Source: Hydrolagus affinis | Lineage: Eukaryota | DNA: 64,000 nt | Assembly: GCA_012026655.1 (NCBI GenBank) | Contig: JAAILG010000381.1 | Span: forward strand, 1 to 64,000 | Direction of reading: 5' to 3' | In this document: one piece after another, positions 5,101 to 39,780 of the stretch | How positions within the stretch are numbered: the stretch's first letter is position 1 | How the letters are laid out: the number at the start of each line of letters is the position of its first letter | Notes under the pieces: generated by a model | What the model was told of the DNA's origin: nothing | Databases searched by the model: none | Seen by the model: the letters and a program-made list of their open reading frames with translations, nothing else | Made by a program: the position numbers and the translations under genes

Positions 5101-8100
5101 ACCAACGTTCCTGGCAAACTGTTCCATTTCCTTGCAGTTCATATGACTAGGTTCATATAAGGTTGACTTATTGGAAGATTCGTCTGTAGGTATTGACTCC
5201 CTCACAAGACAAAGTAAGTTGGTGGATCATCTGTCAGGGTGTGAGGTGCACAAGGAAAGACTAGGACTTACCTTTGAACTACTCTGTGAATGGGCGAAGA
5301 GTACAAGTAACACCGGTAGTGAGCGTTCTCGGTCACGTGCTCCAGCTTGCTGCGGAAGGCGGCTAGTTCTTCACGAGTCCTTAGAAGAAAGATCCCTCGG
5401 CCCAAACTCGATTCGGCGGGTTTGCAAATCCAAATCTGCCCCTCTGTGCAAGCGGCAAGCACAGGAAACCAAAGTCAGCAACGGGAGCTGAAGTTTCGCA
5501 ACGATGTACATGAGTGTTTAAGCCTGGAGTTCCACCTAGAGATGGCCTGCAAAATGCTCTATCAAACTATTTACTGGTCAGCGACTATCAAGTCGAAGTC
5601 TGCGATATTCCTCTCCGCTGCAGCACTGAACCCAGGTAGGGTTTCTGTACATTTATGGTGTGGCCAGTGAGGCTGTGGTCCTCTGCGCTACTTACAAAAA
5701 TAAGTCGTGAGATGATGGATGTGATAATGCAGAGCATTATCCAACTCCGTCCCTTTGAAACTCTCAGAAAAGTTTCCCTACATGAAGGGCACTACGTAAA
5801 TGGAAATTGTTGGTGATGATATGCCCACACTGCCTGGATTTACCATGCAAATGCACTCAGGATGCCATACCCCCCTGCTGCTGTGATGGTCAGCCTGACT
5901 GGCCAAGAGACTGACAACTTGGGTGGAAACTGAAAGCTTTTAAAATAGGTGAAATAATACTAGATAAACATCCTCACATTTAGTTTAGCGCCTTTCACAG
6001 CCGACGGGAGGACATCCCCAAAACACTTTGCAGGGTTAATTAACAACGTAAAGTGGAGTGACTACGTGATTTGTGCGCAAACATGGCAGCCAATTTGTGC
6101 ACTGGAATGTCCCATCGAATCAAATTTATATAGAGGATCTTTGGCCGGGACAACAGGGAGAAACTCCCCTCTCTTTTTTGAATAGTGCCATGGGTCTTTA
6201 ACGTTCACCTGAACAGATAGACGGGGCCTCGGTTTAATGTCTCATCTGAAGGATGGAGGGTAGAGGTTACCTCTGAAAACCTCAAAGTAAGCTTGACGCT
6301 CCTTCTTCAAATCCATGCGGTACGTCTCAGGATAGAAGTCATCTAGTTTCATTCCCCTACTGGGAGACGGGGTAATAAATAATAATAATAATGAGCTTTG
6401 CATTTGATGTCGCGCTTTTTCACATCTTAATAGACGACTCATAGCTCTACGTAGTGACCTAATGTAAAATGGGTTGACTGCACTTTTTGTGGGTGAGATG
6501 CAGCAGCCAGTTGCGCACAGCATGGCAAAAGTCTAAACAGGAAAAGTAGTGGGATCTAACCAGCTAAATTGATAGCACTGTCTGGGCAAGCTTCCTGCCT
6601 ACCCTGCCCTTCCAAGGCCTGGTCTATCAGTAGCAATGCCATAGAGTAGGGTTACAGGTCAAATTCTAGGAATGATTTACTGATGCTGTATTCAAATTAT
6701 TTAAGGAGATATATGTTCGAAGTAAAGTAGAATTTAATTTTGTTGTTGTGTTTGTTGTTGTAGAAGGCTGTTGTAGCCGACTGAATAAAGTCACAACAAG
6801 AAGAGAGTTAATGGTAGCAATCCTCAAAGCAAACCGATTTGTTTTGTGTTAATGGTAGAGTTAATAAAAATAGAAAAAGTCTCACAACTCTTACCATCTA
6901 ATTGTAGAAATGGATAAGTCATCTTCCCAGCAGTCCGTAATTTTACAAAGATAAAACAGACACGTTTATAAAGGTGTTCAATTGTCAGTAGACATTAGAA
7001 ACCAAAACAGCTATTACTAATGGTTGTATCTTAACCGATTTTAATTCACGTCCCTCATACTGGCAAGATTTTTCATTAGATGCTCATTTATGCAAAATCT
7101 CAACATTCAATGAGTGGCAAACCAAAGTATAATAGTTGCCCTTCTCACTCATTTTTGTTCCTCTTCCTACAAGTGAAATCAGACAACTTCAGTTGTGCCC
7201 CGAGACTCCAACCTGCATGAATCCAGGGAGCATTGTAACAAGGCCAGCCGGTATTCATGTTCAAATTCCCAACCCGTGCAGTTAATGATCTCAGTCAGTG
7301 TGCGTGGGAAACTCAGGCAGTGACCTCGATGTCAATTCTCAAATATCCCCAATGTGAAAAATTAATTACACCCGGGTGTATGTTTGATGGTGTCAGATTC
7401 TGCACTAATTAATACACATGTTTCAATGCTGTATTTTCCAGAATTTGTTGTATTGGAAGGAACTCTACAATATTAATAATAGCATTTGATATGGTCCATG
7501 ATTAGGTAGAATGACAAGACATCTCAAAGCCCTTTACAGGAGTTACTGTAACAAGCAGGGGCCGTGTATTTATAGGCAAACTGTTAGATTGGAGCCTCAT
7601 TTACAAAGATTCCCAATTAAATGCATTCTAACCAGTGTATTAATTAGGTGAGTGCTGAATATCTCAGTCTTATGGGCAAATAAATACATAAAGCAAGAGA
7701 AGATCAAAAGCTAATATCAAAGGCAAGAATCATTATTGCCAACTTACCCAGAACTTGGAGCTGCTGTATATTTACTCATTACACGATCATAGTCCTTTAG
7801 GGAACTGCAGAGGCCAGCCTTGGTGGTCAACAGCTTGTTGTTGGGGATATGGTTTAACATCTGTTTACCTGTTTGAATGACAGAAGACAAGGGCATGAGC
7901 AGAGGACATAAGAACATAAGAACATAAGAATTAGGAGCAGGAGTAGGCCATTTGGCCCCTCAAGCCTGCCCCGCCATTCGATAAGATTATGGCTAACTCT
8001 AATTACCTGCCCTACCCCAATATTCCCTAATCCCTCTATTTAAAAAAAATCCTTTCAGTCTCAGCCTTGAAACTGAGCATCTCCAGCCTTCTGGGGTAGT

Positions 8101-10787
8101 GAATTCCATAAATTCACTACCCTCTGAGTGAAGAAATGTTTCCTCAACTCTGTTCTAAAAGGCTGACCCTTCATTTTAAGACTGTGACCCCTGGTTATAG
8201 ATTCTCCTACCAGGGGAAACAGTCCCTCACTATCTACTTTATCCAGCCCTTTAAGAATCTTATCTGTTTCAATAAGATCTCCACTAATTCTTCTGTACTC
8301 TAGAGAATACAGCCCTAGTTTATTCAACCAATTCTCATAGGTCAGTCCCCTCATCCCAGAAACTAACCTAGTGAATCTACGACATGTCACTCTAGCAACA
8401 AGAAATCTGGTGCAGTTTTAGAGACGAAACTTCATAGGCAGGTACAGGGAAGCCTCAAATTGAGAAGATTCCTTGCTACAAATTAAGAAGGAAGGAGACT
8501 GCACTTGAATAGTGTGTGTATGGAAAAAACTAACTTGCATTTTTATTGTGACATGACATTTGAAAAATGTCAAAGCGCTTCACAATAATTCTTGAGTGCA
8601 AAACAGCTTATTCCCAAAGTTAGGCAAACTAAGGAGCACAGTGTTGAATTATGTAAGGCTTGGTTTGAATTATTCGGAGAGCTGACTTACCCTGCTGAAA
8701 GCTTTGATAGTTGATACGTTGCTTGAGTTCGCACCATTTTAATATGTAGTCTGTTCTGTTGCTGTCGTAGATTCGCTTCCATCCCCTATTCTCACAGAAG
8801 TTGCTTATTCTATATTCAAAAGAGATAACACAATGTTTCAAAGGTATAACCACCAGACAGACCAGAAGAGAAGATCCTAAAGGAGGATGGAGTCATGTCA
8901 ATGGAGATGGGCAGACAGGTGGCAAATGCAATTCAGGGCACAAAAATACACTTTAGGAGGAAGAACAAAAAAAGCAAATACACCCTAAATGGTAATATTC
9001 TTACTAGAGTGAAGCAGCAAATACCTTGGACTTTCACTCGACTTAGACTGTAAAACAAGCCAATTGAATGGTAGGTTTTACATCCGGGGGCATTGAATAC
9101 AAAAGTAAGGAGTTAATGAATGACGTCAATTATCAAACTGTATGAAATCTGAGGTTTTTCATGACATTATGAAATGCAGTAAATTTCAGTGCTAAATCCA
9201 ATTAAGGCCATTAAATCAATGCAGGCTATTCGAGCTACGTTAATAAAATTCACTGTGAAGCTACTTTATACATACAAGTCGGCCCCATTTGCACCTCCAA
9301 TGTAGAAGAAAGGTCCTGTGCCTCTGTAGTCATATCTCTTGGCTTTGTTGTTTTTGGAATCTCCGGACTGATCTGTTTAAACATTTAAGATTACTGGATT
9401 ATTTAGTAGTCTGTTGCATTATGAAGATATTTTAAATTAGCACCTGTGATTCGCTTTTCTCAATCGAGCAAGTTTTTTGGGGGGGTGGTCAGTAACTTGT
9501 CTATCACCTGCGGAAACATACCACCGTTGGTTAAGACTATCCAAACCAAACTGAGAATTCCATGCATCCCACCTACATATGAAAATTCCAGAGATAGCTA
9601 TTGGAATGGAATGCTCACTCTCTCCCTGGAGGGTTGAGTAAGGTATCATTCATCAGCTACGACTAGTCCAGATGTCTGTTTTGATGAGACCAAATTGGAA
9701 CTTCTTAAAAAAAATATTCACTGCCTCTGTCCATGTATCAGAGAACTCCAACACGCAAGATCTCGACTCCAAAGGAGCGTGATGAGTAAACGGGACCATA
9801 GCTCGAGGAGAGGACCAACTCAGGCACAACCTACCATAGAAACATTCTGTATCGTTCCATTTTGTGGCAACTAGTTTGGTCGCCTTGTTTAACAGCAAAT
9901 ATAACGCAGCATTGCCAAGTGGCAGGCTGTCACTGAGTGAAAGGGGTTTCTTTGTTACTTTTTTTTGAAGGGTGCTCCATTCCCAGTATTCCATTCACTC
10001 AAGCCCCCTCCAGTCCTGCTCCTGAGCCAGGGGGCTTCCTGGGAACAGGGTAGCTAACCCTTGATTTTCCCTGGAACTGTGCGGAGATTTCTGGCCTCAA
10101 AAACTGCAAGAAAGCTAAGCCTTGGAGCTCAATGGTGCAGCCGATCAAACCAGTGTTATTTTGAGGCGCTATGTAGATCAGACAAAGGTATATTTGGACT
10201 TAAATCCTGGACCGCACTTCAAAAATACATTCTTGTGCGCAATTCGAATTTCAATCGTTTCAGGAGATTGCAAACTGATTGTGGAGAGCATCCAAAATTA
10301 TTCCCCTTCAACTCAGCTCAACGATTATCCAAACACACACAAACAATCTTTCAGCACGTTGCTAGGAAATTGTACACAACACAACTGAGCTTTACATCAA
10401 ACAAATTTCCAGTGTTTTCAACATAAATGGGTCCTATTTCATTCTTATTAATTTTGTGCTATTGAAATTGACGACAATTACAGTGAGTGCATGTCTTTAG
10501 ATTGCGTGTTTATTGTCTGCATCGCTGATTGAAGGAAGCAAAGGCGCTTTGTTGAAATTACAACCGCAAATGAAGCTTAAACAATCATTAGAGTGAAATA
10601 CAAGAGCGAATCTCTTCCCATGGTAGTGTAGAGACTTTTGGTAGATCATTTGGCTGACGCTTCACACAGGGAGAGGTCTGTGACATTCCCTACATTCTAA
10701 CAGAAAGGACGCAGAGCAGGTAACAGCTTACAAAACTGCCTGGAGCCACTGGCGAGGAATGAAAGTCATAGCCTTACCAGCTTCCAT
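2147..10787 (-). CDS. ttll10: Tubulin polyglycylase TTLL10 paralog A (multi-exon, 3'-incomplete; last exons expected left of the window)
   Basis: GT-AG exons with consistent phases: 9276-9372 (DQSG..GTGPFFYIGGANGADL), 8691-8809 (ISNFCENRGWKRIYD..ILKWCE), 7748-7868 (KQMLNHIPNNKLLTTKAGL), 6271-6356 (DDFYPETYRMD), 5272-5443 (QIWICKP..GRGIFL..VVQR), 4535-4706 (YIHNPLLLDGRKFDVR..HLTNQ), 3095-3235 (YIQKKNP..WSMERLN), 2147-2263 (GFFDLLGCDFMIDQNFK). These are TTLL ATP-grasp motifs, and the GPFFYIGG/KWCE segments are TTLL10-like. The first exon 10778-10787 (ATG GAA GCT G|GTAAGG) is tentative; see findings for an alternative 5' end. Confidence 0.92.
3284..3466. other. Assembly gap (183 N)
   Basis: Run of n within a TTLL10-A intron. 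Confidence 1.
4107..4497 (+). mobile_element. tRNA-derived SINE, full length, with internal (CA)n/(CACGCA)n microsatellite
   Basis: Head ctgtagctcagtggttagagcactcgcc (pol III A box) followed by a B-box-like segment, shared family body and (TAT)n tail. Confidence 0.85.
7905..8390 (-). mobile_element. CR1-type LINE 3' fragment
   Basis: ORF 8061-8390 encodes a CR1 ORF2 C-terminus (YSLEYRRISGDLIE..TRGHSLK..FFTQRVVNLWNSLP); (TTCTTATG)n tail at ~7905-7930. Related 3' fragments at ~2520-2770 (+), ~38430-38690 (-), ~41715-41925 (+). Confidence 0.85.
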
Positions 10788-20509: not shown

Positions 20510-23500
20510 ATGGCTTCAGACGACGATGGTTATTTTTCCAATATAAACGAGTTCCAAAACAATTTCCTATGCAGTATTTCACCAATCCCGGCAGTTTCCT
20601 CTCACAGGTTCTCAGGTGAGTGATTCGACTCAGTTCCAAGGGTTGGAATCCTTTTGGCAGGACCCCACGTGTTTAGAGAAACACACGTGTCTCTCTCTCT
20701 CTCTCTCTCTCTCAGTGAGAGAGAACAATAAAGTGAATCTGAAACTGTAAGAAGTTCAGTCATTTGGCAGAAGATATCAGAGATTCATCCATTCTGATCA
20801 AACAGGCCTTATACTGTACTAAGATAATATTAATCTTTGCATTTGATAGAGCGCTTTTTCATGTCTTCAAGACGTCTCAAAGCCCTTCACGGAATACACT
20901 GTAAAGTGAATTGACTGTATATATTTGTGGGCGAAATGCGGCAGCCAATCGTGCCCAGCGGCGTCCCCCACAAACAGTCGTGGATTGAGGTGACCATAAA
21001 GTGTGTTTTTTTGGGTTAAAAAGTGTCCTTTTAACAAAAGACTGTTCAATCTTCTGTTTAAAAGTGAGCCCAATGTGACAGATATCTTCTCATGTTATAA
21101 AATGTGGGATAATGTTGATAACGCAAATAACTTCCGACTTAAAAACAGATCGAACAGGGAACAATGTCAAACTAAAGGATTCCAGGCGAAAGAGAACGGA
21201 TGATCGGCGAGACAAGGGGCTTTTTTTCTACGTTGAAAGCTCAAACGAGGCTGACTTGTACGTACAAACGTAAAGCTTTCTGTGGTAATAAGTTGCTAAA
21301 ATGTTGCTCGTGACGTCCTTCAATAAAAGATGGTTTGAGACATTCGAAAATGTACCATGAGCAAATCAGAAGTTATTGTGTCATTTCAGGTTTGTATCTG
21401 AGATTCACGACGAAACTTTTAAACGTCGCACGTTACGACTCTTGCGTGCCACGTTCTGCCCACAAAGTACACTTTAATATCCACGTTATATTAATATTAA
21501 TCCTTGCATCTGACAAGCGCTTTTCACGTCTCCCAGATGTCTCAAACCGCTTTACAGAACATACTGTGTATATGTGGGCGAAACACGGCAACCGTTTGTG
21601 CAATTGTGGATTGAAATGACTAAAAAAAAATTGGGGGATTATTATTAGGCGTGTGGAGTAAGGAAAATTGCCCAAGGTGTCGCACCTGACCTGGAATTGA
21701 ATTTAGGTCTCTCGCTTGTAACGCAAGTGCTCTAACCACTGAGCTACTGGACTCCACAAATTGCAAAACGCTTCAAACAATTCAACCATTCACACCAAAA
21801 CTTCATTCCATCGGCCACAACACAAGATCTTATACTTTACAATATATTCTGTCATTTGAGATGTCTTAAGCGAAGCAATAAGGTGCTATATCAAATTAAA
21901 GGTTTAATATTCTTCTTATTATTATCATCATCATTTTGGAAGCCTACCAAATATTGTCACAAACCAACAGACTTATTGTCTCTCTGTTTGAGCTCGTTTA
22001 GGGCAACAAAAAGGATTGAAAGCAGAACTCTGATCACCTGCGGGACTTCCATGTGATATTACGTGAACTCTATGTAACATTATATGAACTGTATTCACTC
22101 AATAGATTTATTGTTCTCGCGTCAAAATATTAAATAACGATGTAAGAAGACAAGTTGCACACAGTAGGGATGGAGCTTCAATTTTTATAATCTGGTTGAT
22201 ACGCATTATTATATATGGAGCTTAAAAGCCCTTATCAGTTAAAGTAACATGTTGAAATATCACATTATTTCTTTTTTTGAATACAGAATTTACAACTACT
22301 GTGTGAACAGGGAATGGAAGCGAATCATAGACAATATCAGACTGAACTACATATTAAAAGGTAAAACAGAAATAACTCCATTCCGCACTGTTAATGTGTT
22401 TCTGCACTACATTGGATTCAACACTTACCTCTTTGACTGCACCCACTCCCTAACCTCTCCAGCTGCTAACTAGCCCCCACCCTGGCTCGGGCATCCACTC
22501 TGAGACAAAGCTCTCTGAGATACCCTCCTGACGCCCAAGATATTATATAAATGTAAATTAAATAATATAAATGTAAAGATATATAAATGTCAATTGTAAA
22601 GCAATGTGGATATTGCTGCCTTGATGTTTGTGACTTTCTTAAATCCAATTTGTTGATCTTTTTGATGGAAGCTATCAAACTAGCAGAGTGAGGATGAAAG
22701 ACTTTCTGCACTTTATTTCTCTGGCTTCTGTCTTTGAACAGGTAAGCAGACTTTATACCATATTCCTAACAACAGGTTCCTGACCACCAAAGTTGGCCTC
22801 TGCACTTCGCTCAAGGATCAAGAGCGGAGAAGCAACAGATACATAAAGTTCAGATGTTCCACGTAAGGACACTTGTACAGTATTATGTTTAGACTGTGAT
22901 ATAGACTATATGCCACTACCCTTAATTGACATACCAGCCATTGGTTACACCTGAACTAAGCAGTTGCCAAATGTGCTGCTACAGTTACCAAATGTGCTGT
23001 GACTTCCAAACGGGAAGGGAATCAATCTTCTTATTCGCGGAAACCAAACAGATCGAGGAGAAATAACAGTTCGAGAAGAGATGAGAGACCCCAAAATTTT
23101 CTCATGGTCTCTTAATGACTCAATGTTGAAGATGACGTGAATTTTTAGAAGCAAAAGAAAACATTTCTGCTTCTCTCCACCAGGCTGCTGAAACTGGATG
23201 AATTCTATCCTGAGACGTACCGCATGGATGTGGCGAAAGAGCGGTTAACTTTCTTTGAGGTCTTCAAAGGTATTTATTCTCTTCCTTTTGTCTGTCATCA
23301 AAGGCCAGTTTGTGGTATGATTGAAATCTAGACTTGTTAGTGTCAATCCGGGTGTTGTTAGACGCAAAGTAACGGATTGTTAACAACCGTGTAGGATGCG
23401 TGGTTGATGATATCTTTATGAAACAATGGGGGCGAAAGTGTTGATAAGCAACGCTCTTGTTAACAGCTCCACCATCTAAACTGTATTTCATTATCATAAA

Positions 23501-26500
23501 TCATAACCCTTACCTTTGAGAACATCCTGTGAATCGCTTTGAGGCGTCTCAAGATGTTGTAGTTATTGTCTTAACCCGATAAGGCGCTATATCAAACGCA
23601 AGGATTGTTCTAATTAGTATTATTATAAACACCGATGAGAGTATTACCTCATCGCCCATTCCTGACTGTGGCTCCCTGTGCTTGTCTCTAACGTAGACGG
23701 ACAGATTTGGATTTGCAAACCCGCCGAATCGAGCTTGGGCCGAGGGATCTTTCTTCTGCGGAATCGCAATGATGTCGCCGCCTTCCGCAGTAAACTGGAG
23801 AGCGTGGAAAAAATTCCTCAACACAGACTGTGCTTCTACAATGCGCCCATTCACAGAATAGTACAGAGGTACGTGGAAAGAACCGAAACAGAAATTAAAT
23901 TGCTGATTATGTACAGCAACAGGACTGGAGGGATACCAGGGAAGGACTGACGCGTCGTGAGTCAAAGCTCTGGCAACATGTCGCAGCTGGACATAATATC
24001 AAGATGATCATCCTTGTATCATTTGACACAGAGCCTTATCACGTTGTTGAGACGTCTCAAAGCACTTTACAGAATACACTGTAAAGTGAATTGCCTGAGT
24101 GTTTTCTTGGCGAAACAGGCAGAAAATTAGAAACGTATGGTCTGTCCAGCGCCACGGACAGATCCAGAGGAGTAAAAAATGTCCCTGACTGTGTCTCCCA
24201 ATGTACACTTGCAGTTTTATTAAAATGTCCTTTTTCCTCAAAAAGGTACATTCACAACCCTCTGCTACTGGATGGTAGAAAGTTTGACGTCCGCTCCTAC
24301 TTCCTGATTGCCTGCACCTCACCCCATGTGACCTTCTTTCACCACGGTTATGTCAAGGTGACGTGTAACCAATATCACCCAAATTCGGATGATCTGACAG
24401 GCCACTTAACCAACCAGGTAGGCTGAATATTAAACCATCGGTCACTCGCTTCAAGGCTATATTAAAATCCCGCGAAGCGCTTTGAGACATCCCAATGACA
24501 CTGTAAAATGCAAGGATTACAGTATTATTATAATACTAATAATCCTTGCATTTGATATAGAGCTTTTCACGTCTTCTAGACGTCCCAAAGCGTTTCACAG
24601 AAAACACTGTAAAGTGAATTGACTGCACGTTTGTGGGCGAAACGCGGCAGCCAATTGCGCACAGCAGTGTCCCACAAACAGTCGTGGAATGAAAGGACCA
24701 TTTTATTATTTTTTTTGTTGGAGGGATTATTATTAGGCGCACGTGTGGAGTAAGGAAACTTGCCCAAGGTTTCGCCCTGACCTGCCTGGATTCGAACACA
24801 GGTCTCACGCTTGTAAGAGCTCCACAACAACTCCCAAACCAAATGAGTCATTCAATCCATAGCTTATAATTGGTAACAAGTAAAAGTGTAAAGTTGAGGG
24901 TTTGGACCACATCAAGGCCATCTATAAAGGAAGGAATGGATGATAACGAGGTCAGGGAGATAGATGTGCGCCTGTGTTGGCCAGTGTGTAAATCCAGCTG
25001 GTGTACTGGTGTGGGCAGGTGCTCATTAGCTGTGTAACCTGCGTGAGGGGATAAAAATACGCAGCTCAGCAGATGTTGCCGATGTTTTTCTCAATCCCAT
25101 GTGTTTCATCCATCTCTGGTGTGTATAAGCCAAATCTACCTGCATTTTAACCCCTTCGCAGCACAGAAGTCTTGTTTTTCCATCGTCATTCCCCGAACGT
25201 ACGGCCGAAAGAACAAACTTATTTTCACAGCACCTTTATTGTGCTAAATTGGATCCCAAGCGGTCTTCTACGGGTGAATGTCACTGTCGAGCGTAGTGAC
25301 TGCTTTGTAAGGAAACAAAGCAGCCGTTTGCAGCAACAAGCAACAACAAACTTACACTGATAGAGTGAGCGCCTTTCACGTCGGGAGGACGTCCCAAGGC
25401 GCTGAATTTTGCAGATTTTTTTGGCCAAGATATATAGAGAAAAACTCCCTTTCAACAAGTGTCTGCAGCATCATCTTATCAAATGCCTTTTGAAAATACA
25501 TATTCACAAGACGACGGCGTTTGGTTTCCAACAATAAACCAAATGCATATGATGTAATGCCTTTATATTACAAAAACATCTAAAAGCACTTCACAGCTAA
25601 TTGCTAAATACTCCTCCTTCTGACTCACAAAGCTTCTGACTAGCTTTTAAATGTTCAATTTTTCACAGATGTCTGCAATGTCTAAAATATACCACCTGCT
25701 GCCCCCTTCCCTCTCTCTTTTCCTGGGAAGCATATTTTTAATCCACTAATTGCAGCCTTGTGTCTTTTCTCCCTCAGTTCGTGCAGAAAAAGAACCCAAA
25801 TTACAATGAGGTGATGGAGGAAACAATCTGGTCCATGGAGCGGTTAAATAACTACATTAATGACAGGTTTAGGATAGCAAAGGCTCTCCCGAAGGACTGG
25901 GTCTTCACTATGTTTGAGGTAAGGGAGTGATCCTGCTTTTCACACTGGCTCCAATTGACACAAGGGTCTTCTCAGGGCTTTTACTAAAGTAATCCTTGCA
26001 TTTGATCTAGCGCTTTTCACATCTTCTAGATGTCTCAAAGCGCTTCACGGCATATACTGTAAAGTGAATTGACTGTATATTTGTGGGCGAAACGCGGCAG
26101 CCAATTGCGCACAGCAGCGTCCCCACAAACAGTTGTGGATTGAAACGGCCAATTTTTTTGGGAGGGATTATTATTGGGTGTGAGGAGTAAGGAAACTTGC
26201 CCAAGGTTTTGTCTTGCCGTGAATTGAACCCAGGTCTCTCTCGCTTGCGAGGTGAGTGCTCTAACCACTGATTTACAGGACTCCAGGAATCATACTACCA
26301 GTGGAGCTCCTGTGGCTCAGTGGTTAGAACACTTGTCTTGCAAGCTGGGGAGACCAAGCTGGGGAGACCTGTGTTCGAATCCAGGCAGGTCAGGGCGAAA
26401 CCTTGGGCAAGTTTCCTTACTCCACACGCCTAATAATAATCCCTACAAAAAAACCACAATAATAAAATTGGTCATTTCAATCCACGACTGTGTGTGGGAC

Positions 26501-29500
26501 ACTGCTGTGTGCAATTGGCTGCCGCGATTCACCCACAAATATATACAGTCTATTCACTTTACAGTATATTCTGTGAAGCGCTTTGGGACATTGATAAGAT
26601 GTGGAAAGCGCTATATCAAATGCAAGGATTATTATTATTATTATTTTAGATGATTCGGGCACACCCTAGCTAGTGACGGCACAGAGTTGTAGTGTTTATC
26701 ATGATGACATTTTTGATCACCTGGAACGTTAGATAACTTAGTTGAGTATCTAATAACCAGGCGTTTTTCAGGAGGTTGTTTAAGAAAATAATTTTAAAAA
26801 CGACTTCAAAGACTGGACATTCTAAATTACCCCCACAATGGAGTCAGTCAGGGCAAACTATCTCCCCATTCTTGTCAAATGCTTTACTCAGTATCTTGTC
26901 AGCTCCTTAAACAGCCAGCTCATGACCAAGTACATGAGGCTGCTTAACAAATACCAATGAAAAAGAGATGCTTCAAGGTTTTAATTCAAGGAGGGATATG
27001 TGAATGAACAGCCATCTAATAAGGGTGCAAGCATCTCAAAAGGTTTCTGATTATTAATAAATCCAAGACATCTTTTTTATTATGTTAATTTAAAAACACA
27101 TTTTTGTTCCGTATAACTCTTAGTTTAAGTCCCCACCTGGAATATATCATCATCTTGGATTCCAGATAAACCCTTGTGAAATTTAAAGTTTGGGGAAAGA
27201 CCTGGGGAATGGACGAGAGAAAACTCCAGTGGGAGGGTTGGCAAAGAGCAGAAACAATTGTCTGAATGGTCTCCTTCTCCACTACATATTCTATAATTCG
27301 ATGCCCATTTTAAACACATCATTTAAAGCTTTATCAATTTTCTTGCAGAGGAGGATGCAACAGATCATGAGGCAATGCTTCATCTCTGCTAAGAGCAGAC
27401 TGGAATGTAAACTGGGCTACTTTGATCTTCTGGGCTGTGACTTTATAGTTGATCAAAATTTCAAGGTGATGTGCAGTTATTTGTATTCTTTTTATTTCCT
27501 GTGTTTGTGTTAAGTCAGAGATGACAATTCCATTGACTTGTTGCGATCACTAATCTTGCTGCTGCCAACGGCATGGACTGGCCACCAGCAAAAGTCCAAA
27601 CGTAAAATGAACTCCACCAAAAAAAGTGATTGACATACATGAAGGAACAATTCCCCAGTCCATTTAAACACAACACAGGCAGCAGATGTAACACAGCACT
27701 AGTTCAGCCATGATTGATTTGGATGGCATTAATGCATGCAAAACACTACACAGGCCCAGACAATGCACACTCTTGTCGTATCGTTGAATGGGGGGGAGAG
27801 AGAGAGTGGTAATGAATTGGAAACGAAACCCTCTCGTGTTTCAGTAAATGGCCGCTCGCTGTATCAGTGTCTACCTCGCACAGTGACTAATCCCACAGTA
27901 CAATGAGCCATCTGATCGCCTCTCATTCAAACATCCTTTATGATTAATTAAAGGACTTTGTTGCCCAGTTTGTTTTCTGACAAGAGAGGTTTTTTTTTAC
28001 ATAAAGGGTTGAAATTGTTCAAATATTTGATTTACAATGTGCCTTCATAGACATAATCAATATGTGAGAGAAAACACAACTTGGTTCCAATTTTAATAAG
28101 CTTACAATAATAATCCTTGCATTTGATGTCATGACGACCAACCCTCTCAAAGCATTTTCGCTGCAGAGTATGACTGTGTATTTGTAGGCAAGCGCGATTA
28201 CCAATAATCTGAATACAGCAAAGACCTACAAACAAGGAAGTAAATGACAAATTTTGTCCGGGGGATAGTTGGCTAGGACACCGGGAGAATGACTGGCCTT
28301 TTCGCAGTGGTTACCACATTCGCTATTTGCAAACCCTTTCGACAATCTTTGCAATGAGATGTCAGAGCATGGGTTGGTCTGAATCGCTTTGCAGAATATT
28401 GAAGTGCATCAGTAATCTTCTAATGTCCACAGCTAACGGATAACTTTGTGTAATTCCCATTTGTGAGCCACTGTTTGTGCGGGTTAGCTGCATGTTTTGT
28501 AGGCGAAGAAAGAGGTTCGTGTCTCTCAGTTACTGGTCACGGGGAGAGGAGGTGACTGTTGAGATCGCTGTGGAAGATTGCCTTTACTCAATAAAATTAG
28601 GGTCTCCATGACCTTGCAGCGAAGATCCTGGCAGGTGGATCCTAAACTGGGATTTATTTACAGCCTAATTTACTATCGCATCAGTCGGGAGATCAGCCAG
28701 AATTTGTGCTTTCACTGCTGGAAAAGTGAGGCGGGTGGAGAAAATTTAGAAAGTTGATAGGATTTGTCTGCAGTGATCACCAAATTAAAAAAAGGATGAG
28801 ATATCCAGTAGATTTATTGGTGGGAATGTTTTACCTGTTGTCATGGTGGCTAAGGCCAAACAGAACTGGTTAGAATGATTTGCTTAATGTCAACATGCGA
28901 TTGTATGTGTAATGTTTGGATTAATAAATCTGCAATCTGAGAAAAGCCAGTAGACTTATTGGCTATATCGACTTAAATCGTCAGAATCATCCTGGCAATG
29001 ATATTGCAGTTTAATAACAACAACTTGCATTTATATAGCGCCTTCCACGCTGGGCGGCGTCTCAGAGCCCTTTGCAATGGCGGAGCCTGAGGCCGGGCCA
29101 GGGGGAGGGGGGAAAGTGACCGTAAGCGTGGTCGGTCGAAGAGAAAGGTCTTCAGGTGTGACCTGGAGATGGGGAAAGAGGAGCGAGGTGAGGGGGTTGA
29201 GGGAAGGAGTTCTAAAGGTTGTGGAGCGGAGGATGCGGGGTGACAAGGAGGAGGTCAGACCCAGTAGAGGCAGAAGGTTCTGCTGTGAAGAGAGAGGAGG
29301 TTAGAGAGGTCAGGGGGGATGCAGAGGAGTGGAGGGATTTGAACACAAGAGTGAAGATCCTGAAGTTGATCCACTCTGTGACAAGAAGCCAGTCATGTTT
29401 GGTTAATACCTAACCAACCATTCAGCCACTGAACAGTACTGCACAGGAGTCAATACAAATAATTAGTTTGTTGTTGTCCTTTCACTTATATAAATCATCC

Positions 29501-32218
29501 AATGGTTATTTAATTTATCACACTCACAAAGTGGAGTCCTGTAGCTCAGTGGTTAGAGTACTCGCCTTCCTTACAAGTGAGAGGCCTGGGTTTGATTCCA
29601 GGCAGATCAGGGTGAAACCTTGGCCAATTTCCTTACTCCATAGGCCTGATAATAATAATCCCTCAAAAAATGAACAATAATAGATTGATCATTTCAATCC
29701 TCGACTGTTTGTGGGGACGCTGCTGTGTGCAAACGTTGCCACCTTTCGTCCACATATATACAGTCAATTCATTTTACAGTATATTCTGTGAGATGTCTAG
29801 AAGATGTGAAAAGCGCTATATCAAACGCAAGGATTATTATTATTAAATTGTTTTTTTTTGTTCTTAGCTTAGAAAGTTTGAGATGCATTGGCCTAAAGCC
29901 ACTGTCTGTTTTTAGCACTAAGCTACAAAGAGCTGAAGGTTACAGAATCCAGGTGTGATGAGGTAGGTGTTGTGGTGCTATAATTGGCATCAGTCCACCT
30001 GGGTGAGGAAGGGAAAAATCTGGTAGAATCATTTGTTGTGATCCCTCCTGTTCAGTGACCTAAGGGCATACATGTGGGACATTGGATGTAAGGGCATGTG
30101 ACCTGGCTCTGTGTTGACGCTGGCATCGCAGGTGAAGCATTAAAACACTCCAAATTGTTGCAAGTCTGAAATTGCTATCGCACTCGCTTCAAAATAAAAC
30201 TTTTAGAAAATCATGAAGAGGGTCACCATCCGAAAGGTCGGTAGAATTCTTTCTGACCCTTGAGACGGCTTCCCGGCTGCCATATCTATTTGCCAAATCT
30301 CCTCACATTAAGGACCTGGATTAAGCAGCTGGAGGTGAATACGGCTGGTACGTGACATTGGGCTTGCTACTCAAGAACATTCAAGGTAGCTGGCACGTCA
30401 CAAGCTGTCCTGCAGAGGTCCTCCTCATGTGCTGAAAGCAGCTAAAATGAAAGTGAGTGCGATGAAAGAGGGGGATTTTAGATGGGATTTAGTCAGAGGT
30501 GCAGAGGGAGGGAGCGAGGTTACGGACATAGCAGTAGAAAATGGAGCAGAGGAGTGGATGAACACACTGCAGGCTCCAGCAGAAGGAGTGAAGGAAGAGT
30601 TGAGGTCGGAAAAGAATCACTGAATAATGGAGGTTCCTGGGCAAGAAGGGATTTATAGGTGAGGATACAGATCTTGAAGTTGATCCTTAGGGAGACAGTG
30701 GATCTTAGTGGAGCTTAGCTTCAGGTGAGCTATTTCAGTCGCACAAAGTCATCGAGGCGAAGGGAGAGAATCCAACCCAAAGGCTTGAGGCATCATCCAG
30801 ACATGAGGGGTTATATAAATACAATTTGTTGTTGTTGTTAATCAGTAATCCGTTGCATTTAATATAGTGCTTTTCGCATCAGGTGGACATCTCAAAGCGC
30901 TTCACAGGATCTATTGTAAAATCACGTGATTTACTGTAAAGAAATAAAACGTGTATTTTGTAGGGAAATGCAGTGTGCTGTTCTTTAAGGTTCTGCACTG
31001 ACAACAACAACAACAAAATTACATTTGTAGAGCGCCTTTCACGCCGGGAGGACTTCCGTGGATAAGTTTGTGCAAAAGAAACTGGGAGAAACATTTGAAC
31101 TTTAAAAAACCCACCGTAAATATCATAGTAGTTCTGCACCATCTGGTGGACGTTTAAAGCATTGACGTGTGAAAAGGAGTGCTGAGTTTCCGTATCCAAG
31201 ATTATGCAAAATTGGATCACTCACATTCAGGGCTATTTGAGAGAAAATGTTGTGTACAAACTGGCTGCGCTGTGTTCACCAACAAATAACAGTCACCACA
31301 CTTTGCGGGAAATTCCTGTGGAGTGCTTTGAGATGTGTCGGTAAAATAAATGGCTATTTTTTTCTTTAGGATGGTAAAACCGTTTTTGCGCATCCATCCA
31401 AACCAAACGCGGCTTCACAGAGAACCACTTTAATACCATTTTATATCTTCTGTGGGTCCTAAACTGGGAATGAGGAAAAAATACACTGAAAAAGTGTTTG
31501 ACAGGAATGCAATTGATCTATTTCAGGTCTGGTTACTTGAGATGAACAGTAGCCCATCTCTGGAGAGACACTGCGAGGTTCTCAAAAATGTCATCCCCAG
31601 TTTGGTTACTGAAGCTCTCGGTAAGATAGCCCATTTTCACCCTCGAGTTATCACAAAAAGACATTCGTGGTAAGGGCGGGTTTTCAGACATACGAAATGA
31701 ACACCCTTCTGTCACTTGGCAATTCTGCTTGTTTTAACAGTGGCTCTATTTTATTATTAGATATAGTCATTGAGATATTCATCAAAAGCGGACAAGCGCT
31801 ACCCATCCTGCCACTTCAGTCACAAAAGAAGTTCATCCTGCTCTATCACACTTGCTTCCTGGATTTGAACCTCAAGTCGATCACAAAGTCGAGGGCGGAG
31901 AATCTCTTCTTGGAAAAGATACCACACATCAGCCATTCTGACTTTTCAGCGACGAATCCGAAGAGGCTGGAGCCGTCCGCAAGCTTTGCTCGCACCCTAA
32001 CCAAATTAGCTCAGAGATCGTTTCACTCGCAGCGGCAGCTGCCAGAGATTAAAGAGGGACGGAAGCGACACTCTGCCAAACCTAAATCTAGCCAGGATGT
32101 AGCAACCACTCAAGGTGCTTTGATTGAATGTAAACCCAGTACGGCATCGAAGGCTTCTAAAGCCCACTCAAAATTGACTCCAAGATCGCCTCGTAAATCA
32201 TCATCAGCTAAGGCTTAG
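20510..32218 (+). CDS. ttll10: Tubulin polyglycylase TTLL10 paralog B (11 coding exons, 549 aa, divergent)
   Basis: Exons 20510-20615 (tentative; GATATGG Kozak, MASDDDG.., AG|GTGAGT), 21149-21257, 22287-22360, 22742-22862, 23184-23269, 23697-23868, 24246-24417, 25778-25918, 27349-27465, 31527-31620 (VWLLEMNSSP), 31761-32218. They total 1650 nt in one open frame. Six internal exons have the same lengths as copy A (121, 86, 172, 172, 141, 117 nt). Confidence 0.92.
21497..21757 (-). mobile_element. tRNA-derived SINE (internally deleted)
   Basis: Family tail and head both present. Confidence 0.8.
24535..24823 (-). mobile_element. tRNA-derived SINE
   Basis: Family sequence with the head partly deleted. 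Confidence 0.8.
25989..26285 (-). mobile_element. tRNA-derived SINE (left member of a head-to-head pair)
   Basis: Family sequence ending ..tttacaggactcca. Confidence 0.85.
26302..26645 (+). mobile_element. tRNA-derived SINE (right member of a head-to-head pair)
   Basis: tggagctcctgtggctcagtggttaga..gcaaggattattattattatt. Confidence 0.85.
27684..27951 (+). other. Conserved intronic block in TTLL10-B (paralog of 436-712)
   Basis: Contains long identical runs with the reverse complement of 436-712, e.g. cctcgcacagtgactaatcccacagtacaatgagccatctgatcgcctctcattcaaaca. Confidence 0.85.
29531..29845 (+). mobile_element. tRNA-derived SINE
   Basis: gtggagtcctgtagctcagtggttagag..aaggattattattatt. Confidence 0.85.
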
Positions 32219-34034: not shown

Positions 34035-37000
34035 TTACAGCACAAACAGATAAACTGCCAGAAGCTCCAGGGCAAAGGCTAGGAACAATGGGCAAAAAAT
34101 ATAGAGCAATTCATGTTGCAGAAATCTGACCGCAAACACATTTGAATTGCTTGCACCCATGGTTGAAGAGCTTTCTAGCTGACAGGTTTGTGAAGCCTGG
34201 TTCTGTCCTACATTCTCATCCCCTTTTTCCAATTCTCTTACCTCTGACCTGGTAAGGTTTGCCTCATTGTTTGCTCTTAATTTACATTTCATACATTGGG
34301 TTGATTCCTCAGTGTCGACTTTTGAATAAATGACACGTATGACTGCTTTACCTGGGCTACCTGCACCATCATTATCTTTCATTGAGACAATATCAGAGAC
34401 AGAGTTCAATGTTTTCTCTGACTCCTCAATTCCAGTCCCCTTCACTTCCTTCTCTGTCTGTTTGGGGGTTTGGGGACTCACTTTTGTGGGATTATTCTGA
34501 GCAAGCACAGTACTGTCTAATGATTCTTCATTAGAAGAATGAAGTGTGGCACTCTGCAGTGTGTCTTCCATTGAGTCTGAGGTTGGTTGGGAAGTAGAGT
34601 CAGTTGTTTGGAATGTCTCTGTACTTTCCTGAACATTAATCAATATCTGTTTGGGAATCATGGATTTCGGTGCATGTGTGGAAGTTGGTTTGTCGTGGTC
34701 GGGTGACTCCGCTTCGGTGCCTTTCAATGTTACATCTGCTTCTTTATCCTCAGTGTCATCCTCCAAGGCGAAGATCGACCATTTGCTGGGAATGTACTTT
34801 AGCAAAGAATCCCACTTATGCTCTCCGCAGTGGCTGCCAAGCCAAAAAAAAAGACACTGACAAAAGATACAGCAACAGAACCAAAATCAACGCACTGGTA
34901 TCCATTTCATTTTACAACCCGCAGTTAATTCACAGATGATCTAGCGATGAACCAGGTTCTGAGTTTGCTTTCTCAATCCCTGGGGGAGGGGGGGTGGGGG
35001 GGCAACTCATCTGTCCCAGGGGATTTCAGCCTTTTGAGCCCAACCAGAAATAAATAGGACTTTGCCAAACAGTCAGAAGGAACGGGGATGGGGGATGAGT
35101 GTGGCTGCAGAAGGAACATGTTTGACCTGCTTCTTATATTATAATCTACAAGTGAGCAAATATTTTGGAAAAACCTTTATAAATCTTGCAGGTGGTTTGT
35201 GCACCCACCTGTTTTACAAATGACAAGGATTGGTCATTTTATTTTGTCCCATTTCCCCCTCCCTCCCTCCCTCCTCACACACACACAATGCAAACAACTG
35301 CTATTATCTGGCAACAGCTGTGACCTAGACAAAGGTAATTATACATTCCTACACCAGTCACCTGCTGTGAAGAAGATTAAAGAGATCTCAAAAATGTACA
35401 ATTTGAACAGTAAAGGATCAACTTAGTCGACTCACGGCCTAACAAAGGATCACTTCTATTAATAAATATGTAACTCAAAAGCTGTAACTTTTGGCTGCAT
35501 TGCAAATTCTCTCTCTTCTGGTCACAGAAATGAAGAGCAATTGTACTTGAATCCTGTGTAAGCACGATTACTACCGTTACAAGGTAATCAGGGAGCAAAG
35601 CAAACTGTGATACAGGGGAACTGAACAGACTGTGGAAGAGAAAACAAAATGCATGACCACCATGTAAATGTGAGGAAAAGCACCTGTGAGAGACACTCCT
35701 TTGTGAGATGGGAATCCCTGTACCTCAAACTGACCTGTGACACTGGCCCTGAACCAAGATCTCCTGAAGCTGAAGTCTTACTCATCACTCTTTCCTGAAA
35801 GGGTCAAACACTTACTTTCAGAGAAGAAAGCGGTGGTGGTGAGGGGCAGGGGGAGGGTGGTGGAGAGGGCAGGGAGTGCTAACCAAATCCATGGTAACAA
35901 CACAATTTGCTTTCTTTTTGATTCAATATCCGTGTCTATGAAACACGTCATCCGGTGAAGGCAAAAAAAGTAAAAGTTAGTCGATGGGGATGACAAAATA
36001 TAAGCCATCGTTTGAATGACAAAGTTATATTTAAAAATCCCCCACTGGTGCAAATTTGCTTCACAATCATTTAAGGAAATTTCTGTTTCCTGGCACCGGA
36101 ACTGATGAACGCACGTGAAATAGTACGGATGGTGGGTGGGGACGCAGAGGAATATGGAAAACTACAATACATGCAAATTTGCCGGTGGATGTATTCAATG
36201 CTCCGTACCTATAATTTACTACTTGCGTAGATCGGACGGTCAGTCTCCCTCGTGTCTCAGTTGGTAACACCACTGGCTACGTATGGAGAGACTAGAGAAT
36301 CCCAGCAATGTAGTTGACCTCAGCAGTAGGTGGATATAACACAACCATCAACATTGTACTAATGATCTTTTCGTTAGGTGACAATACTAAGGTTTAGGGG
36401 TGCTAAGATGATAAGGGATTTCAAATTTAATTTACCTATTAAAAAAAAGTTTGGTCGCCTTAGCAATTTGCACAAGATAAATCTGAATGAATCCAACCAG
36501 AGACTGTTTGAGAGAAAATGGAGGCTGAACACACAAAACAAAATCTCAATGCAGCAATAATAGCTGGGCGATTGAGCAATTGTCTGAGCAACCGGTTGTT
36601 CAAAGCTTCGGAAAGATTAGGAAGACATCTGGCAACCACCCTGAAGTTGACCAGTTAGAACACGTGTACGCCATTGTTTTATACATACTCAGTAAAACAA
36701 GAAAGTTAAACCATTGCACTTACCTCATACAGTTTCCTTGCAGCCATGTGTCAATCGATTTGAAGTGAAATTCCATATTCTCATAAAGCGGGGAGACAAA
36801 CTTATAGGAATCAAAAATCTGCACCTTGCCATTCCTCGGCCGAGCACCGAGCGTCTTCTCTCCATCTCCAAACCAGATCTCAACGTGCACAATGTTGTGG
36901 AGCTGCAATTTGGCTGTCAACAATCGAGAAAAGCTTGGGTTTGACAAAAATTACAAAGTGTGAATAGGCCAGACATTGGACATTCAATGGCATAACTGGC

Positions 37001-39780
37001 TGAAACAAACACACTGCCAAAAACGGGCAGTTTGACCCGACTAGTTAAATAATAATCTGTGTTATAATCCTTCACATCTTATCAACGTCTCAAAGCGCTT
37101 CACACAGCGCTTTGAGACGTTGATAAGATGTAAAGTGAATTGACTGTAGATTTGTGGGCGAAACACTGCAGCCAATCGCGCACAGCTGCGTCCCCACAAA
37201 CAGTCGTGGATTGAAATGACCAATTTTATTATTGTGGGTTTTTTGGGGAGATGGATTATTATTAGGCGTGTTTGTGAAGTAAGGAAATTTGCCTAAGGTT
37301 TCGTCCTCACCTGCCTGCATTAGAAACACAGGTCTCATGCTTGTAAGGCAAGTGCTCTAACCACTGAGCTACAGTAGCTCCACATACTTATTGGGCAAAA
37401 GCAGCAACTGTCTGATATGTACTTCAAGTCTGCAATTATGTAGTTGATTTGTAATTAAGGAGAGCTTGTCTTTGTGACTGTCTCATTCTCTATTAGATGA
37501 CTACTTCTAAGATTTTTCTAACCCAGGTAGAATATTTAAAACAACTAGTTCAACATCCCAATGTTGGGGATTGAACCCCCAAACATTCTGTTTCAGATGC
37601 AAGAGTTCTACCAACTGAACTGGGCTGAATGAATGACCAAAACATGAATGACCAAGCCAAAATGTATGCTTAAATAAGTATTCATCATAGCACTAGTCGT
37701 ACCTTTGGGGTTCAACTTTTTGCCTGAGACAAAGACAAGGTCCCCTGGCTCCATAGTCTCCTGTGTCCTTATGTTCGGGAGTGTGTCATACATGTAACTC
37801 TTGTTCCCATGAATAATAAATCCAAAGTCATCCCTCAGGTCTCGTACAACTCTCCTCACCAGCCCACCGCCATCCCGAAACAAAGGTGTTTTGTCTTCCG
37901 GAGCTAGGAAATAGTTAGTAGGAAAATGGCAATGTCACACTAAATCAGATCATATTATTGCAAAGCAACCTTAATTCACTTTGCGTCAGAGTGATTTCTG
38001 GCACTGGTAGAACAATGTTGATAATGATGAATCCCAATATGAAAAAGATCACACTGTGTACGGTCCAGAACAATCTGCGGTTCAATCCCTGATCAGTGTT
38101 GAGTTTGCTGATCTGAGTTAAGAACATTGAGTATGTGTGTTAATGTTACGTGATGACAGGATTGGATGTGATCATGCTTCAGACAGGCAAGAGTCTTGGT
38201 GAAACTCACTGTCTAACCTGACAAATGAGAACAGATACTTGACTGAGATATAGATTTGCTACTGCTCTCGGAATCATAGGTAGCGTGTGAGTCTAAGAAA
38301 TCCATTGACAAACACCCCGATTATTAAATTCCGCAAGCCATACTGATAGTGATCAAACAGGCGAATTGAATGATATAAAAGTATGACATACTGTATATGC
38401 TGGATTTGTACAGTCATTCTGAATTAAGCATAGAAACATAGGAACAGGAGTAGGCCATTCAGCCCTTCGAGCCTGTTCCGCCATTTAATTAGATTATGAC
38501 TGATCTGTATCTCTACTAATCCTTTTAATTCCAATTTCCCGCTTTCTCCACGTATCCCTTAACACCCTGACCTACCAAAAATTTATCAAGCTGACTCTTG
38601 AAGGTGTGGATGGATCTAGAATCGGGAGAGAAACTTCCAGATTTCTACCAACCCTTTGAGTAAAAAAAAATGCTTCCTGATTTCTATGTCCCCTTGCTTT
38701 GCATTCCACCACCAAAAAAAGTAGCTTTTCTGATAAGCAATTCTATCCGAGTGACGTCAAGCACACAATGAAGTCTGGCCATTTTTGCTTACTCACTTCC
38801 TGGTTGGTAGGACTTCTGTGCATATGGCACACCGATGTAATTCTTTGCTTGTTCGATGAATTTTCGCCGCAGTTCCCATTGCTGAACTGTGTTTGTCACC
38901 TGGTGGGGCTTTGTACTTATCACTGAAGCATCGTGCAGTTCCTCCTGCAGTGGGCACAAGGTCGAGAGAATTACTTTAACAGGTTCAATAAATCCACTAT
39001 TTTATTAGTTGACGTTTTATATAACGTTCATCGAACATTCATTATTCTCTTGCCCTTAAGCTTCTGAATCTGGTTTTCTTGCGAGCTATGACTTATTCCA
39101 CCTCATTGTTGAGATGGTTGAGATTGCAGTCACTAAACTCCCTTCCAAAATATCTTTGCCTTATTTCTTCTCTACCTGCCTACAAAACCCTTTTAATTAC
39201 CTTCCACCGACTGATAGAAATCTGGAAAACTATGCTTTGAGACGCAGCTCTACATGTTCCAGAACACTAGAACCTCCCATTTCTTTTAGACGAGGGCATG
39301 GGTTGTTTAAAATGACAATTTGCACTTATAATGGCTCACTTTATGTGGGACTTTGGTTTTAATGTTTCATCCAAGGGTATGGCACCTCCTTCAATAGAGA
39401 ACTCCCCCAGTACTGCACTAGATTGGTAACCTGGACTGGGGCTCAACTCCCAGTTTGGCCTTGAGGCAAGAGCGCTGTTAACTGAGTAAAGCTGACACTT
39501 GACGTAGTTTCTTGGAGTAACCCAAAATAAATGAGGAAACCACAGGGTGGAAAACGCAACACGTGAAACTGATGGCTGAATGCTGTGTGCTGGAAATTGT
39601 GCAATTTCACTACTACAATTTGCTGGCACCATCTCAGAGATCAGCCCATGTTCTCGGAAGACACGCATTACAAGCAGCGATAACAAAGATGGTGACGTGA
39701 GGAGGCAGGTTCGCATTTTTCACTGAAGTGACATAATCACCTCATGTGCTGCTTCCTCCATCAGAATCATAGTTTTACGG
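34035..39780 (-). CDS. Uncharacterised NlpC/P60 (papain-like) domain protein, catalytic Cys position replaced by Gly; acidic linker; possible hydrophobic C-terminal tail (455 aa as modelled)
   Basis: Phase-consistent GT-AG exons: 39751-39780 (MILMEEAAHE, tentative start), 38797-38944 (..LRRKFIEQAKNYIGVPYAQK), 37703-37903 (PLFRDGGGLVRRV..MEPGDLVFVSG), 36724-36913 (HNIVHVEIWFGDGEKTLGAR..KSIDTWLQGNCM), 34035-34833 (SHCGEHKW.. acidic S/T/E-rich ..LLYIFCPLFLAFALELLAVYLFVL*). Total 1368 nt, open. The motif order GxPY / D-C-x-G / GDLVF / HV-x-I matches NlpC/P60. Confidence 0.82.
37064..37382 (-). mobile_element. tRNA-derived SINE with internal inverted duplication
   Basis: Family sequence; palindrome at 37074-37131. 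Confidence 0.8.

What the first reader, a model, noticed from the sequence alone, without database searches (positions are those of the whole stretch)
37863..37874. Catalytic Cys lost: D-C-x-G motif reads DGGG
Seen: codons GAT GGC GGT GGG. Both GGC and GGT are one T>G change from Cys codons (TGC, TGT), consistent with an ancestral DCCG. The His of HVEI is kept and the frame is intact. Inference: an inactivated but maintained pseudoenzyme rather than a decaying pseudogene.
Basis: partly seen in the sequence, partly recalled or inferred. Interest (0 to 1): 0.7.

Follow-up and report, generated by a model that had tools for sequence, protein, structure and literature searches.

The report
Disarmed peptidase beside chimaera tubulin glycylase
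In this fish, likely a chimaera, a peptidase-like domain that sharks, reptiles and invertebrates carry on a tubulin-modifying enzyme has lost its catalytic cysteine, yet the gene is intact and close relatives transcribe it, so it likely persists as a non-cutting, probably membrane-anchored protein.

Summary
The bases are real: 37863-37874 (minus strand) read Asp-Gly-Gly-Gly in exon 3 of an intact five-exon, 500-residue gene for an NlpC/P60 papain-fold protein. All 47 non-chimaera homologues compared read Asp-Cys-Cys, and the first Cys aligns with the catalytic Cys of solved structures. It is no assembly slip: one close relative's contig shows no base change there, another reads DSGG. The domain is still 82% identical to elephant shark (linker 45%), is the only copy found, and a relative's RNA covers its exons. 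In a shark, turtles, a snake, ray-finned fishes and invertebrates this domain is the N-terminal half of the tubulin polyglycylase TTLL10; here it ends in a conserved hydrophobic tail beside two TTLL10 copies. Best reading: an old pseudoenzyme whose pocket is still eroding. All six departures from conserved residues lie in this exon, and recent changes there look neutral (4 replacement, 1 silent). No activity was tested.

The parts
37863..37874 (-). Degenerate active-site motif DGGG; GGC at 37871-37869 is the catalytic-Cys position, GGT at 37868-37866 the second Cys (Ser of bacterial DCSG)
38797..38944 (-). Exon 2 (148 nt): first helix of the NlpC/P60 domain and GxPY motif (Tyr at 38824-38822 kept). 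Exon 1 (165 nt, ATG) lies outside the window at contig C381:104637-104473, 65.5 kb away
37703..37903 (-). Exon 3 (201 nt, phase 1-1, skippable in frame): catalytic helix through the GD motif; holds all 6 departures from family-conserved columns
   Evidence: Callorhinchus isoform X2 lacks this exon
36724..36913 (-). Exon 4 (190 nt): beta-barrel with catalytic His (36887-36885); 56/63 identical to Callorhinchus
34035..34833 (-). Exon 5 (799 nt): end of domain, long acidic Ser/Thr-rich linker, hydrophobic tail and stop
34035..34142 (-). Read-through tail, predicted single membrane helix (Kyte-Doolittle 19-mer 2.38); starts where the shark protein is spliced on to the TTLL10 exons; the inferred phase-1 donor position reads AT here (34141-34140)
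   Evidence: donor position inferred from protein alignments only
2126..9376 (-). TTLL10 ligase copy 1, same strand as the NlpC/P60 gene; its last exons were not found in the window
21145..32215 (+). TTLL10 ligase copy 2, inverted, lying between the NlpC/P60 gene and copy 1 (ends approximate)

Best explanation
This is an intact gene for a papain-fold NlpC/P60 domain with glycine in place of its catalytic cysteine, which likely makes it a non-cutting pseudoenzyme, likely disarmed (Cys to Ser) in the ancestor of chimaeras and kept since as a probably membrane-anchored binding or scaffold protein. Shown: fold, motif loss, intact frame, single copy found, exon-restricted RNA in a relative, conservation far above the linker. 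Inferred: the ancestral jawed-vertebrate gene made a long NlpC/P60-TTLL10 fusion and a short form that reads through a splice donor into a hydrophobic tail; chimaeras appear to have kept the short form as a separate product, lost the nucleophile (DSCG, like a substrate-trap mutant with Tyr, Asp, second Cys and His in place), and this lineage then eroded the pocket further (L>R, second C>G, S>G, Q>K, one codon lost). The surviving role would rest on the folded barrel and the tail, most likely binding a ciliary or tubulin-related partner at a membrane, not on chemistry at the old active site.
For: Catalytic position: profile aligns D-C of the family with D-C of DCSG in 3npf, 3pvq, 9ubf, 4xcm; YkfC Asp237-Cys238-Ser239 with Cys238 catalytic (PMC2954226, passages). 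Fold of an active homologue: NlpC/P60, Z 12.2, rmsd 2.3 A over 111 residues; the Callorhinchus DSCG domain is modelled at pLDDT mostly about 90 with Ser116 opening the helix and a C-terminal helix 469-502. 47 of 47 other homologues keep L-D-C-C. Series DSCG / DSGG / DGGG; window groups with Callorhinchus 100/99. Identity to Callorhinchus: domain 135/165, exon 3 52/67, exon 4 56/63, tail 31/34, exon 1 43/55, linker 88/194. 40 of 46 family-conserved columns kept. No second copy in three searches of the genome. RNA run X15 of organism B: mean depth 2.5 in 7 exon-bearing bins against 0.06 in 13 repeat-free intron bins, exon reads in one orientation. Fusion in Heptranchias (8 of 8 isoforms), turtles, cobra, sturgeon, bichir, invertebrates. 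Tail 22/34 identical to catshark.
Against: No binding, location or lack of activity was measured. The domain has run fast in this lineage (relative-rate 30:9 against Heptranchias, p 0.001, while the two TTLL10 copies give 24:23 and 34:25), which fits relaxed constraint. Among close relatives the domain exons show 6 replacement and 4 silent changes (p 0.15 against neutral) and exon 3 alone 4:1. Callorhinchus has an annotated isoform without exon 3. RNA depth is low (about 4), no splice joint was listed, the second RNA run X14 gave at most 0.5, and depth falls to 0.36 over the tail bin and 0 beyond it, so the expressed form may leave exon 5 before the tail. Two other GT sites lie near the junction (34156 phase 1, 34139 phase 0). 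Only one shark orthologue with the motif and one other holocephalan protein were seen.
Confidence: 0.6

Rival explanations
1. Slow decay: the gene was constrained for most of chimaera history but the domain, or at least exon 3, has lately been released and is drifting; the frame survives because little time has passed.
For: All 6 departures from conserved columns are in exon 3; recent exon-3 changes 4 replacement to 1 silent; end branch 0.20 against 0.084 for Callorhinchus; exon 3 can be skipped in frame.
Against: The window-versus-Callorhinchus rate difference is not significant (14:7, p 0.19); exon 3 is still 78% identical against 45% for the linker (p 4e-6); exon 4 shows 0 replacement and 2 silent changes; all splice sites canonical; exon 3 is as well covered by RNA as exon 5.
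Confidence: 0.2
2. Dead domain still on the ligase: exon 5 is spliced, through an alternative donor, to the same-strand TTLL10 copy at 9376, so the inactive domain acts as a targeting or regulatory module of a fused polyglycylase.
For: Same strand and order as the ancestral fusion; both TTLL10 copies begin with a phase-1 acceptor and no separate first exon was found; a phase-1 GT exists at 34156; RNA depth drops near there.
Against: All four Callorhinchus proteins seen end in the tail and carry no ligase domain; tail 31/34 conserved; the alternative donors are weak matches to consensus; an inverted TTLL10 copy lies in between. This changes the setting, not the loss of catalysis.
Confidence: 0.13
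3. Catalysis kept by another nucleophile: Ser in DSCG/DSGG, the second Cys, or another residue.
For: Ser-for-Cys papain-fold domains have been proposed to be active serine peptidases (PMC3495828, passages); His, Tyr, Asp are kept.
Against: The window has Gly at both positions; its only domain cysteines lie about 50 residues after the His, past the last strand (helix/strand order). Atom distances could not be measured.
Confidence: 0.04
4. Sequencing or assembly error (a run of T>G miscalls in a fragmented assembly).
For: Four nearby changes read as T>G on the coding strand; the assembly has 245,464 contigs.
Against: Independent contigs of two related organisms share three or four of these changes, and Callorhinchus has Ser at the catalytic site.
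Confidence: 0.02

Closest known systems
NlpC/P60 (Pfam PF00877, MEROPS C40) gamma-glutamyl endopeptidases, e.g. YkfC / dipeptidyl-peptidase VI (3npf, 3pvq, 3h41)
   Same: Fold (Z about 12 for an active homologue), order Tyr...Asp-Cys...GD...His.
   Different: Spliced animal gene; nucleophile and the next (S1) residue are Gly; scores under the Pfam cut-off (14 bits against 23 for the exon); no cell-wall context; no His/Glu evident at the usual third triad position in the alignment.
Uncharacterised N-terminal NlpC/P60 domain of TTLL10 in sharks, reptiles, ray-finned fishes, invertebrates and protists (e.g. Heptranchias XP_067826386.1)
   Same: Orthologue: 113/164 identical, same exon order, same locus as TTLL10; Atlas structure match TM 0.95 to the N-terminal part of a TTLL10 cluster.
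   Different: DGGG instead of DCCG/DCCA; ends in a hydrophobic tail; TTLL10 duplicated and inverted beside it.
Callorhinchus milii LOC103187438 (XP_007905130.1)
   Same: One-to-one orthologue, 503 against 500 residues, same tail, catalytic Cys also absent.
   Different: DSCG keeps the second Cys and the neighbouring Leu and Gln; 3 against 6 departures from 46 conserved columns.
RipD (Rv1566c), non-catalytic NlpC/P60 binder of mycobacteria
   Same: Precedent for an NlpC/P60 domain that lost catalysis and kept binding (PMC12067865, passages).
   Different: Bacterial, binds peptidoglycan, His also replaced; not an orthologue.
Glutathionylspermidine / trypanothione synthetase-amidase (2io7, 2vpm)
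   Same: Papain-fold amidase joined to an ATP-grasp ligase; weak structural match Z 4.8-5.2. That the amidase undoes the ligase's product is recalled.
   Different: CHAP family, small-molecule substrate; analogy only.

Membership tests
NlpC/P60 superfamily (fold) | Papain-like fold, helix with catalytic position before the His strand (non-permuted) | tested here: met
   Models of two orthologues and fold searches; the window's own spliced protein was not folded.
NlpC/P60 superfamily (fold) | GxPY Tyr, Asp before the nucleophile, GD motif, catalytic His | tested here: met
   All present in the window.
Active NlpC/P60 peptidase (C40) | Catalytic Cys in DC[SC]G | tested here: not met
   Gly-Gly in the window.
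Active NlpC/P60 peptidase (C40) | Pfam PF00877 gathering score (23 bits) | tested here: inconclusive
   Single exon 14 bits; Callorhinchus no hit, active homologues 16.6-29.2 bits, 1 of 4 above cut-off. The family straddles the cut-off.
Active NlpC/P60 peptidase (C40) | Hydrolytic activity | not testable with these tools
   No assay; none found in print for this eukaryotic family.
TTLL10-associated NlpC/P60 domain family | Orthology by sequence, tree and position next to TTLL10 | tested here: met
   Vertebrate clade 100/99; TTLL10 exons in the window.
TTLL10-associated NlpC/P60 domain family | Fusion to the ligase in one transcript | tested here: inconclusive
   No splice joints listed at depth about 4; donor state inferred from proteins.
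Pseudoenzyme | Intact, expressed gene under purifying selection despite loss of the nucleophile | tested here: met
   Met over the long term (by protein identity, not dN/dS); recent selection on exon 3 is unresolved.
Pseudoenzyme | A demonstrated non-catalytic function | not testable with these tools
   Needs localisation, binding and knockout work.
Tail-anchored membrane protein | Single C-terminal hydrophobic helix, actually translated and inserted | tested here: inconclusive
   Hydropathy 2.38, predicted helix, conserved; RNA over the tail thin.

The most novel reading that the evidence does not exclude
The NlpC/P60 domain of TTLL10 is the missing tubulin deglycylase (a gamma-glutamyl isopeptidase that clips glycine branches), and chimaeras are a natural knockout of it: they split it from the ligase, turned it into a membrane-anchored reader of glycylated tubulin tails (DSCG as a natural substrate trap), and duplicated the freed ligase.
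Probability: 0.15. Interest if true: 0.85.

Novelty: new variant of a known kind. Interest (0 to 1): 0.5.

Why it matters
Tubulin deglycylases are described as unidentified (PMC11244163, 2024, and PMC5666887, 2017; passages). A strictly conserved Cys-His domain fused to the glycine-chain elongase, from a family whose S1 pocket binds gamma-glutamyl groups (PMC2954226), is a fair candidate, because tubulin side chains hang from a gamma-glutamyl isopeptide (PMC5666887). This window supplies the first departure from that conservation among the proteins seen: a graded natural series DCCG, DSCG, DSGG, DGGG. It gives ready-made inactive controls and a possible substrate trap, and a lineage in which to ask whether axonemal glycylation changes when the domain is disarmed. 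If the domain is only drifting, it is an ordinary case of lineage-specific enzyme loss.

Tried and rejected
Artefact by T>G miscalls: rejected. A second, active copy in the genome: none in three searches (1, 4 and 7 candidates scored), but the assembly is fragmented, so this is a lower bound. Direct Cys>Gly at the catalytic codon: rejected by the Ser states. dN/dS against Callorhinchus: not run, no DNA for it was available; protein identity and relative rates were used instead. Deep profile search of protein representatives: never ran, so the homologue set comes from three word-based searches and is biased to proteins that share exact words; 7 of 56 proteins lack the motif region (partial or exon-skipped) and one near-duplicate (P0011) was dropped before the count of 47. 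Run search listed no RNA holder by index: no evidence either way. Runs X1 and X5 (organism A) show no cover at 38784-39035, over exon 2, although depth is 33-50 nearby; no joining contig was listed and records are filtered, so this is not counted as a deletion. X13 gave no cover of the exons, X6 did not cover the motif; 8 of 17 listed runs were laid. The small shark exon between linker and ligase was not found in the window, and no clear CpG island marks separate TTLL10 promoters. Atom distances to the His could not be measured (no coordinates returned). Papers: NlpC + TTLL10, NlpC + tubulin tyrosine ligase and TTLL10 + papain-like each gave 0 papers; searches listed nothing on this domain by title or abstract; PMC10318531 passages do not mention TTL. 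Iyer et al. 2009 (PMC3268129), which may discuss peptidase-TTL fusions, is not held, and subscription papers were not searched. No supplements were read.

Full report
Observation. The 12 bases at 37863-37874 read GAT GGC GGT GGG on the minus strand. They lie in a 201-nt exon (37903-37703). With exons at 38944-38797, 36913-36724 and 34833-34035, all bounded by AG and GT, they give one open frame of 445 codons. A search of the own genome with the Callorhinchus orthologue found exon 1 on the same contig, 65.5 kb upstream, with ATG, a phase-0 donor and 43 of 55 residues identical. The gene is complete: five exons, 500 residues. The organism is inferred to be a chimaera (holocephalan) because the protein groups with Callorhinchus milii at 100/99 support.

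Is it real? Contigs of two coded relatives, about 98% alike, cover the motif. Organism B (one run, depth 21) has no substitution in the 12 bases; its 5 gap letters are not printed. Organism A (two runs, depth 36 and 49) has AGC (Ser) at the catalytic codon and TAC (Tyr) where the window has GAC. No run has the C>A change that a Cys codon would need. A near-identical run reached only the edge of the motif in its listed contig. The motif is genuine, though raw reads of the sequenced animal were not available.

What the domain is. The family profile aligns its D-C with the D-C of DCSG in solved NlpC/P60 enzymes (best E 0.0025). In YkfC these are Asp237-Cys238-Ser239, with Cys238 catalytic and Asp237, Ser239 and Tyr226 binding gamma-D-Glu (PMC2954226, passages). 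A model of the gecko homologue matches NlpC/P60 structures at Z 12.2, rmsd 2.3 A, 111 residues. Of 56 proteins fetched, 39 read DCCG, 9 DCCA, 1 DSCG and 7 lack the region. In a shark (8 of 8 Heptranchias isoforms), turtles, cobra, sturgeon, bichir and many invertebrates the domain runs on into the TTLL10 ligase. The window holds two TTLL10 copies, head to head, 202 of 280 residues alike and without stops in the exons compared.

History of the loss. The one exception among homologues is Callorhinchus isoform X1, DSCG. With organism A (DSGG) and organism B plus the window (DGGG) the simplest path is DCCG, DSCG, DSGG, DGGG: the nucleophile became Ser on the holocephalan stem, the second Cys went later, Ser became Gly last. 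The stem branch is long (0.31 against 0.13 for Heptranchias), and the domain ran faster than in the shark (30:9, p 0.001) while the ligase copies did not (24:23, 34:25). From recall, not from a call, the Callorhinchus split is well over 100 million years old.

Maintained or decaying? For maintenance: domain 135/165 identical to Callorhinchus, tail 31/34, linker only 88/194; 40 of 46 family-conserved columns kept, including Tyr, Asp, both His, Glu and Arg; one copy found; RNA reads of organism B cover the exon bins at mean depth 2.5 against 0.06 in repeat-free intron bins, in one orientation, exon 3 included (run X15). Against: all six departures lie in exon 3 around the pocket; recent changes there are 4 replacement to 1 silent and over the domain exons 6 to 4, neither distinguishable from neutral; Callorhinchus has an annotated isoform without exon 3; the second RNA run gave at most 0.5 and no splice joints were listed. 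So long-term constraint on the fold is shown, present-day constraint on the pocket is not.

The tail. The shark fusion leaves the linker exon at the point where the catshark, sturgeon, Callorhinchus and window proteins read on into a hydrophobic tail. The window's tail is 22/34 identical to the catshark's and is modelled as a helix in Callorhinchus, so it looks like an old alternative ending, not a prediction slip, although the catshark and sturgeon proteins are gene predictions. At the inferred phase-1 donor the window reads AT. That the gene is split from TTLL10 is therefore an inference: weaker GT sites remain nearby and RNA depth falls over the tail.

Mechanism. Most likely (0.6) a pseudoenzyme: no nucleophile, folded barrel, probably anchored by its tail, acting by binding. 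Rivals: recent drift of the domain (0.2), dead domain still spliced to the ligase (0.13), another nucleophile (0.04), artefact (0.02). What the active relatives cut is unknown. The fusion to the glycine elongase and the gamma-glutamyl preference of the superfamily point to tubulin side chains; deglycylases are called unidentified in PMC11244163 and PMC5666887 (passages), and a parallel idea for transglutaminase-like domains is in PMC3495828 (passages). Earlier notes of this scan raise the same idea for the family in other genomes; they are unchecked and not independent support.

Novelty. Non-catalytic NlpC/P60 domains are known (RipD; PMC12067865, passages). Three full-text searches found no paper joining this domain to TTLL10, within the limits of the library. 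What this window adds is the graded, lineage-wide loss of the nucleophile in a family that otherwise keeps it in 47 of 47 cases, and the tailed short form. Verdict: real, a new variant of a known kind, interest 0.5.

Noticed in passing
window 2126-9376 (-) and about 21145-32215 (+): Two TTLL10 paralogues, head to head, 202/280 residues alike in the exons compared, no stops; an old inverted duplication. No separate first exon was identified for either.
   Followed up: partly
contig C381:104637-104473 to window 38944: Intron 1 of the NlpC/P60 gene is 65,528 bases; its content was not examined for nested genes.
   Followed up: no
window 37812-37806 region (-): One codon is missing relative to Callorhinchus and sharks in the loop before the conserved Asn, and the invariant Gln after it is Lys; organism B reads Asn there (37800).
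   Followed up: partly
window 36735-36724 and 34833-34815 (-): A C-x3-C-x2-H motif after the domain is kept in the window and in most homologues; a metal site or structural role was not tested.
   Followed up: no
window 38784-39035: Both runs of organism A lack cover over exon 2 while flanks are covered at depth 33-50; could be a deletion or a filtered record.
   Followed up: no
window 37020-37440, 38364-38700 and many other places: Very high-copy interspersed repeats in the introns (summed contig depth in the millions, also abundant in RNA reads).
   Followed up: no
window 3284-3466: A run of 183 N inside an intron of TTLL10 copy 1.
   Followed up: no
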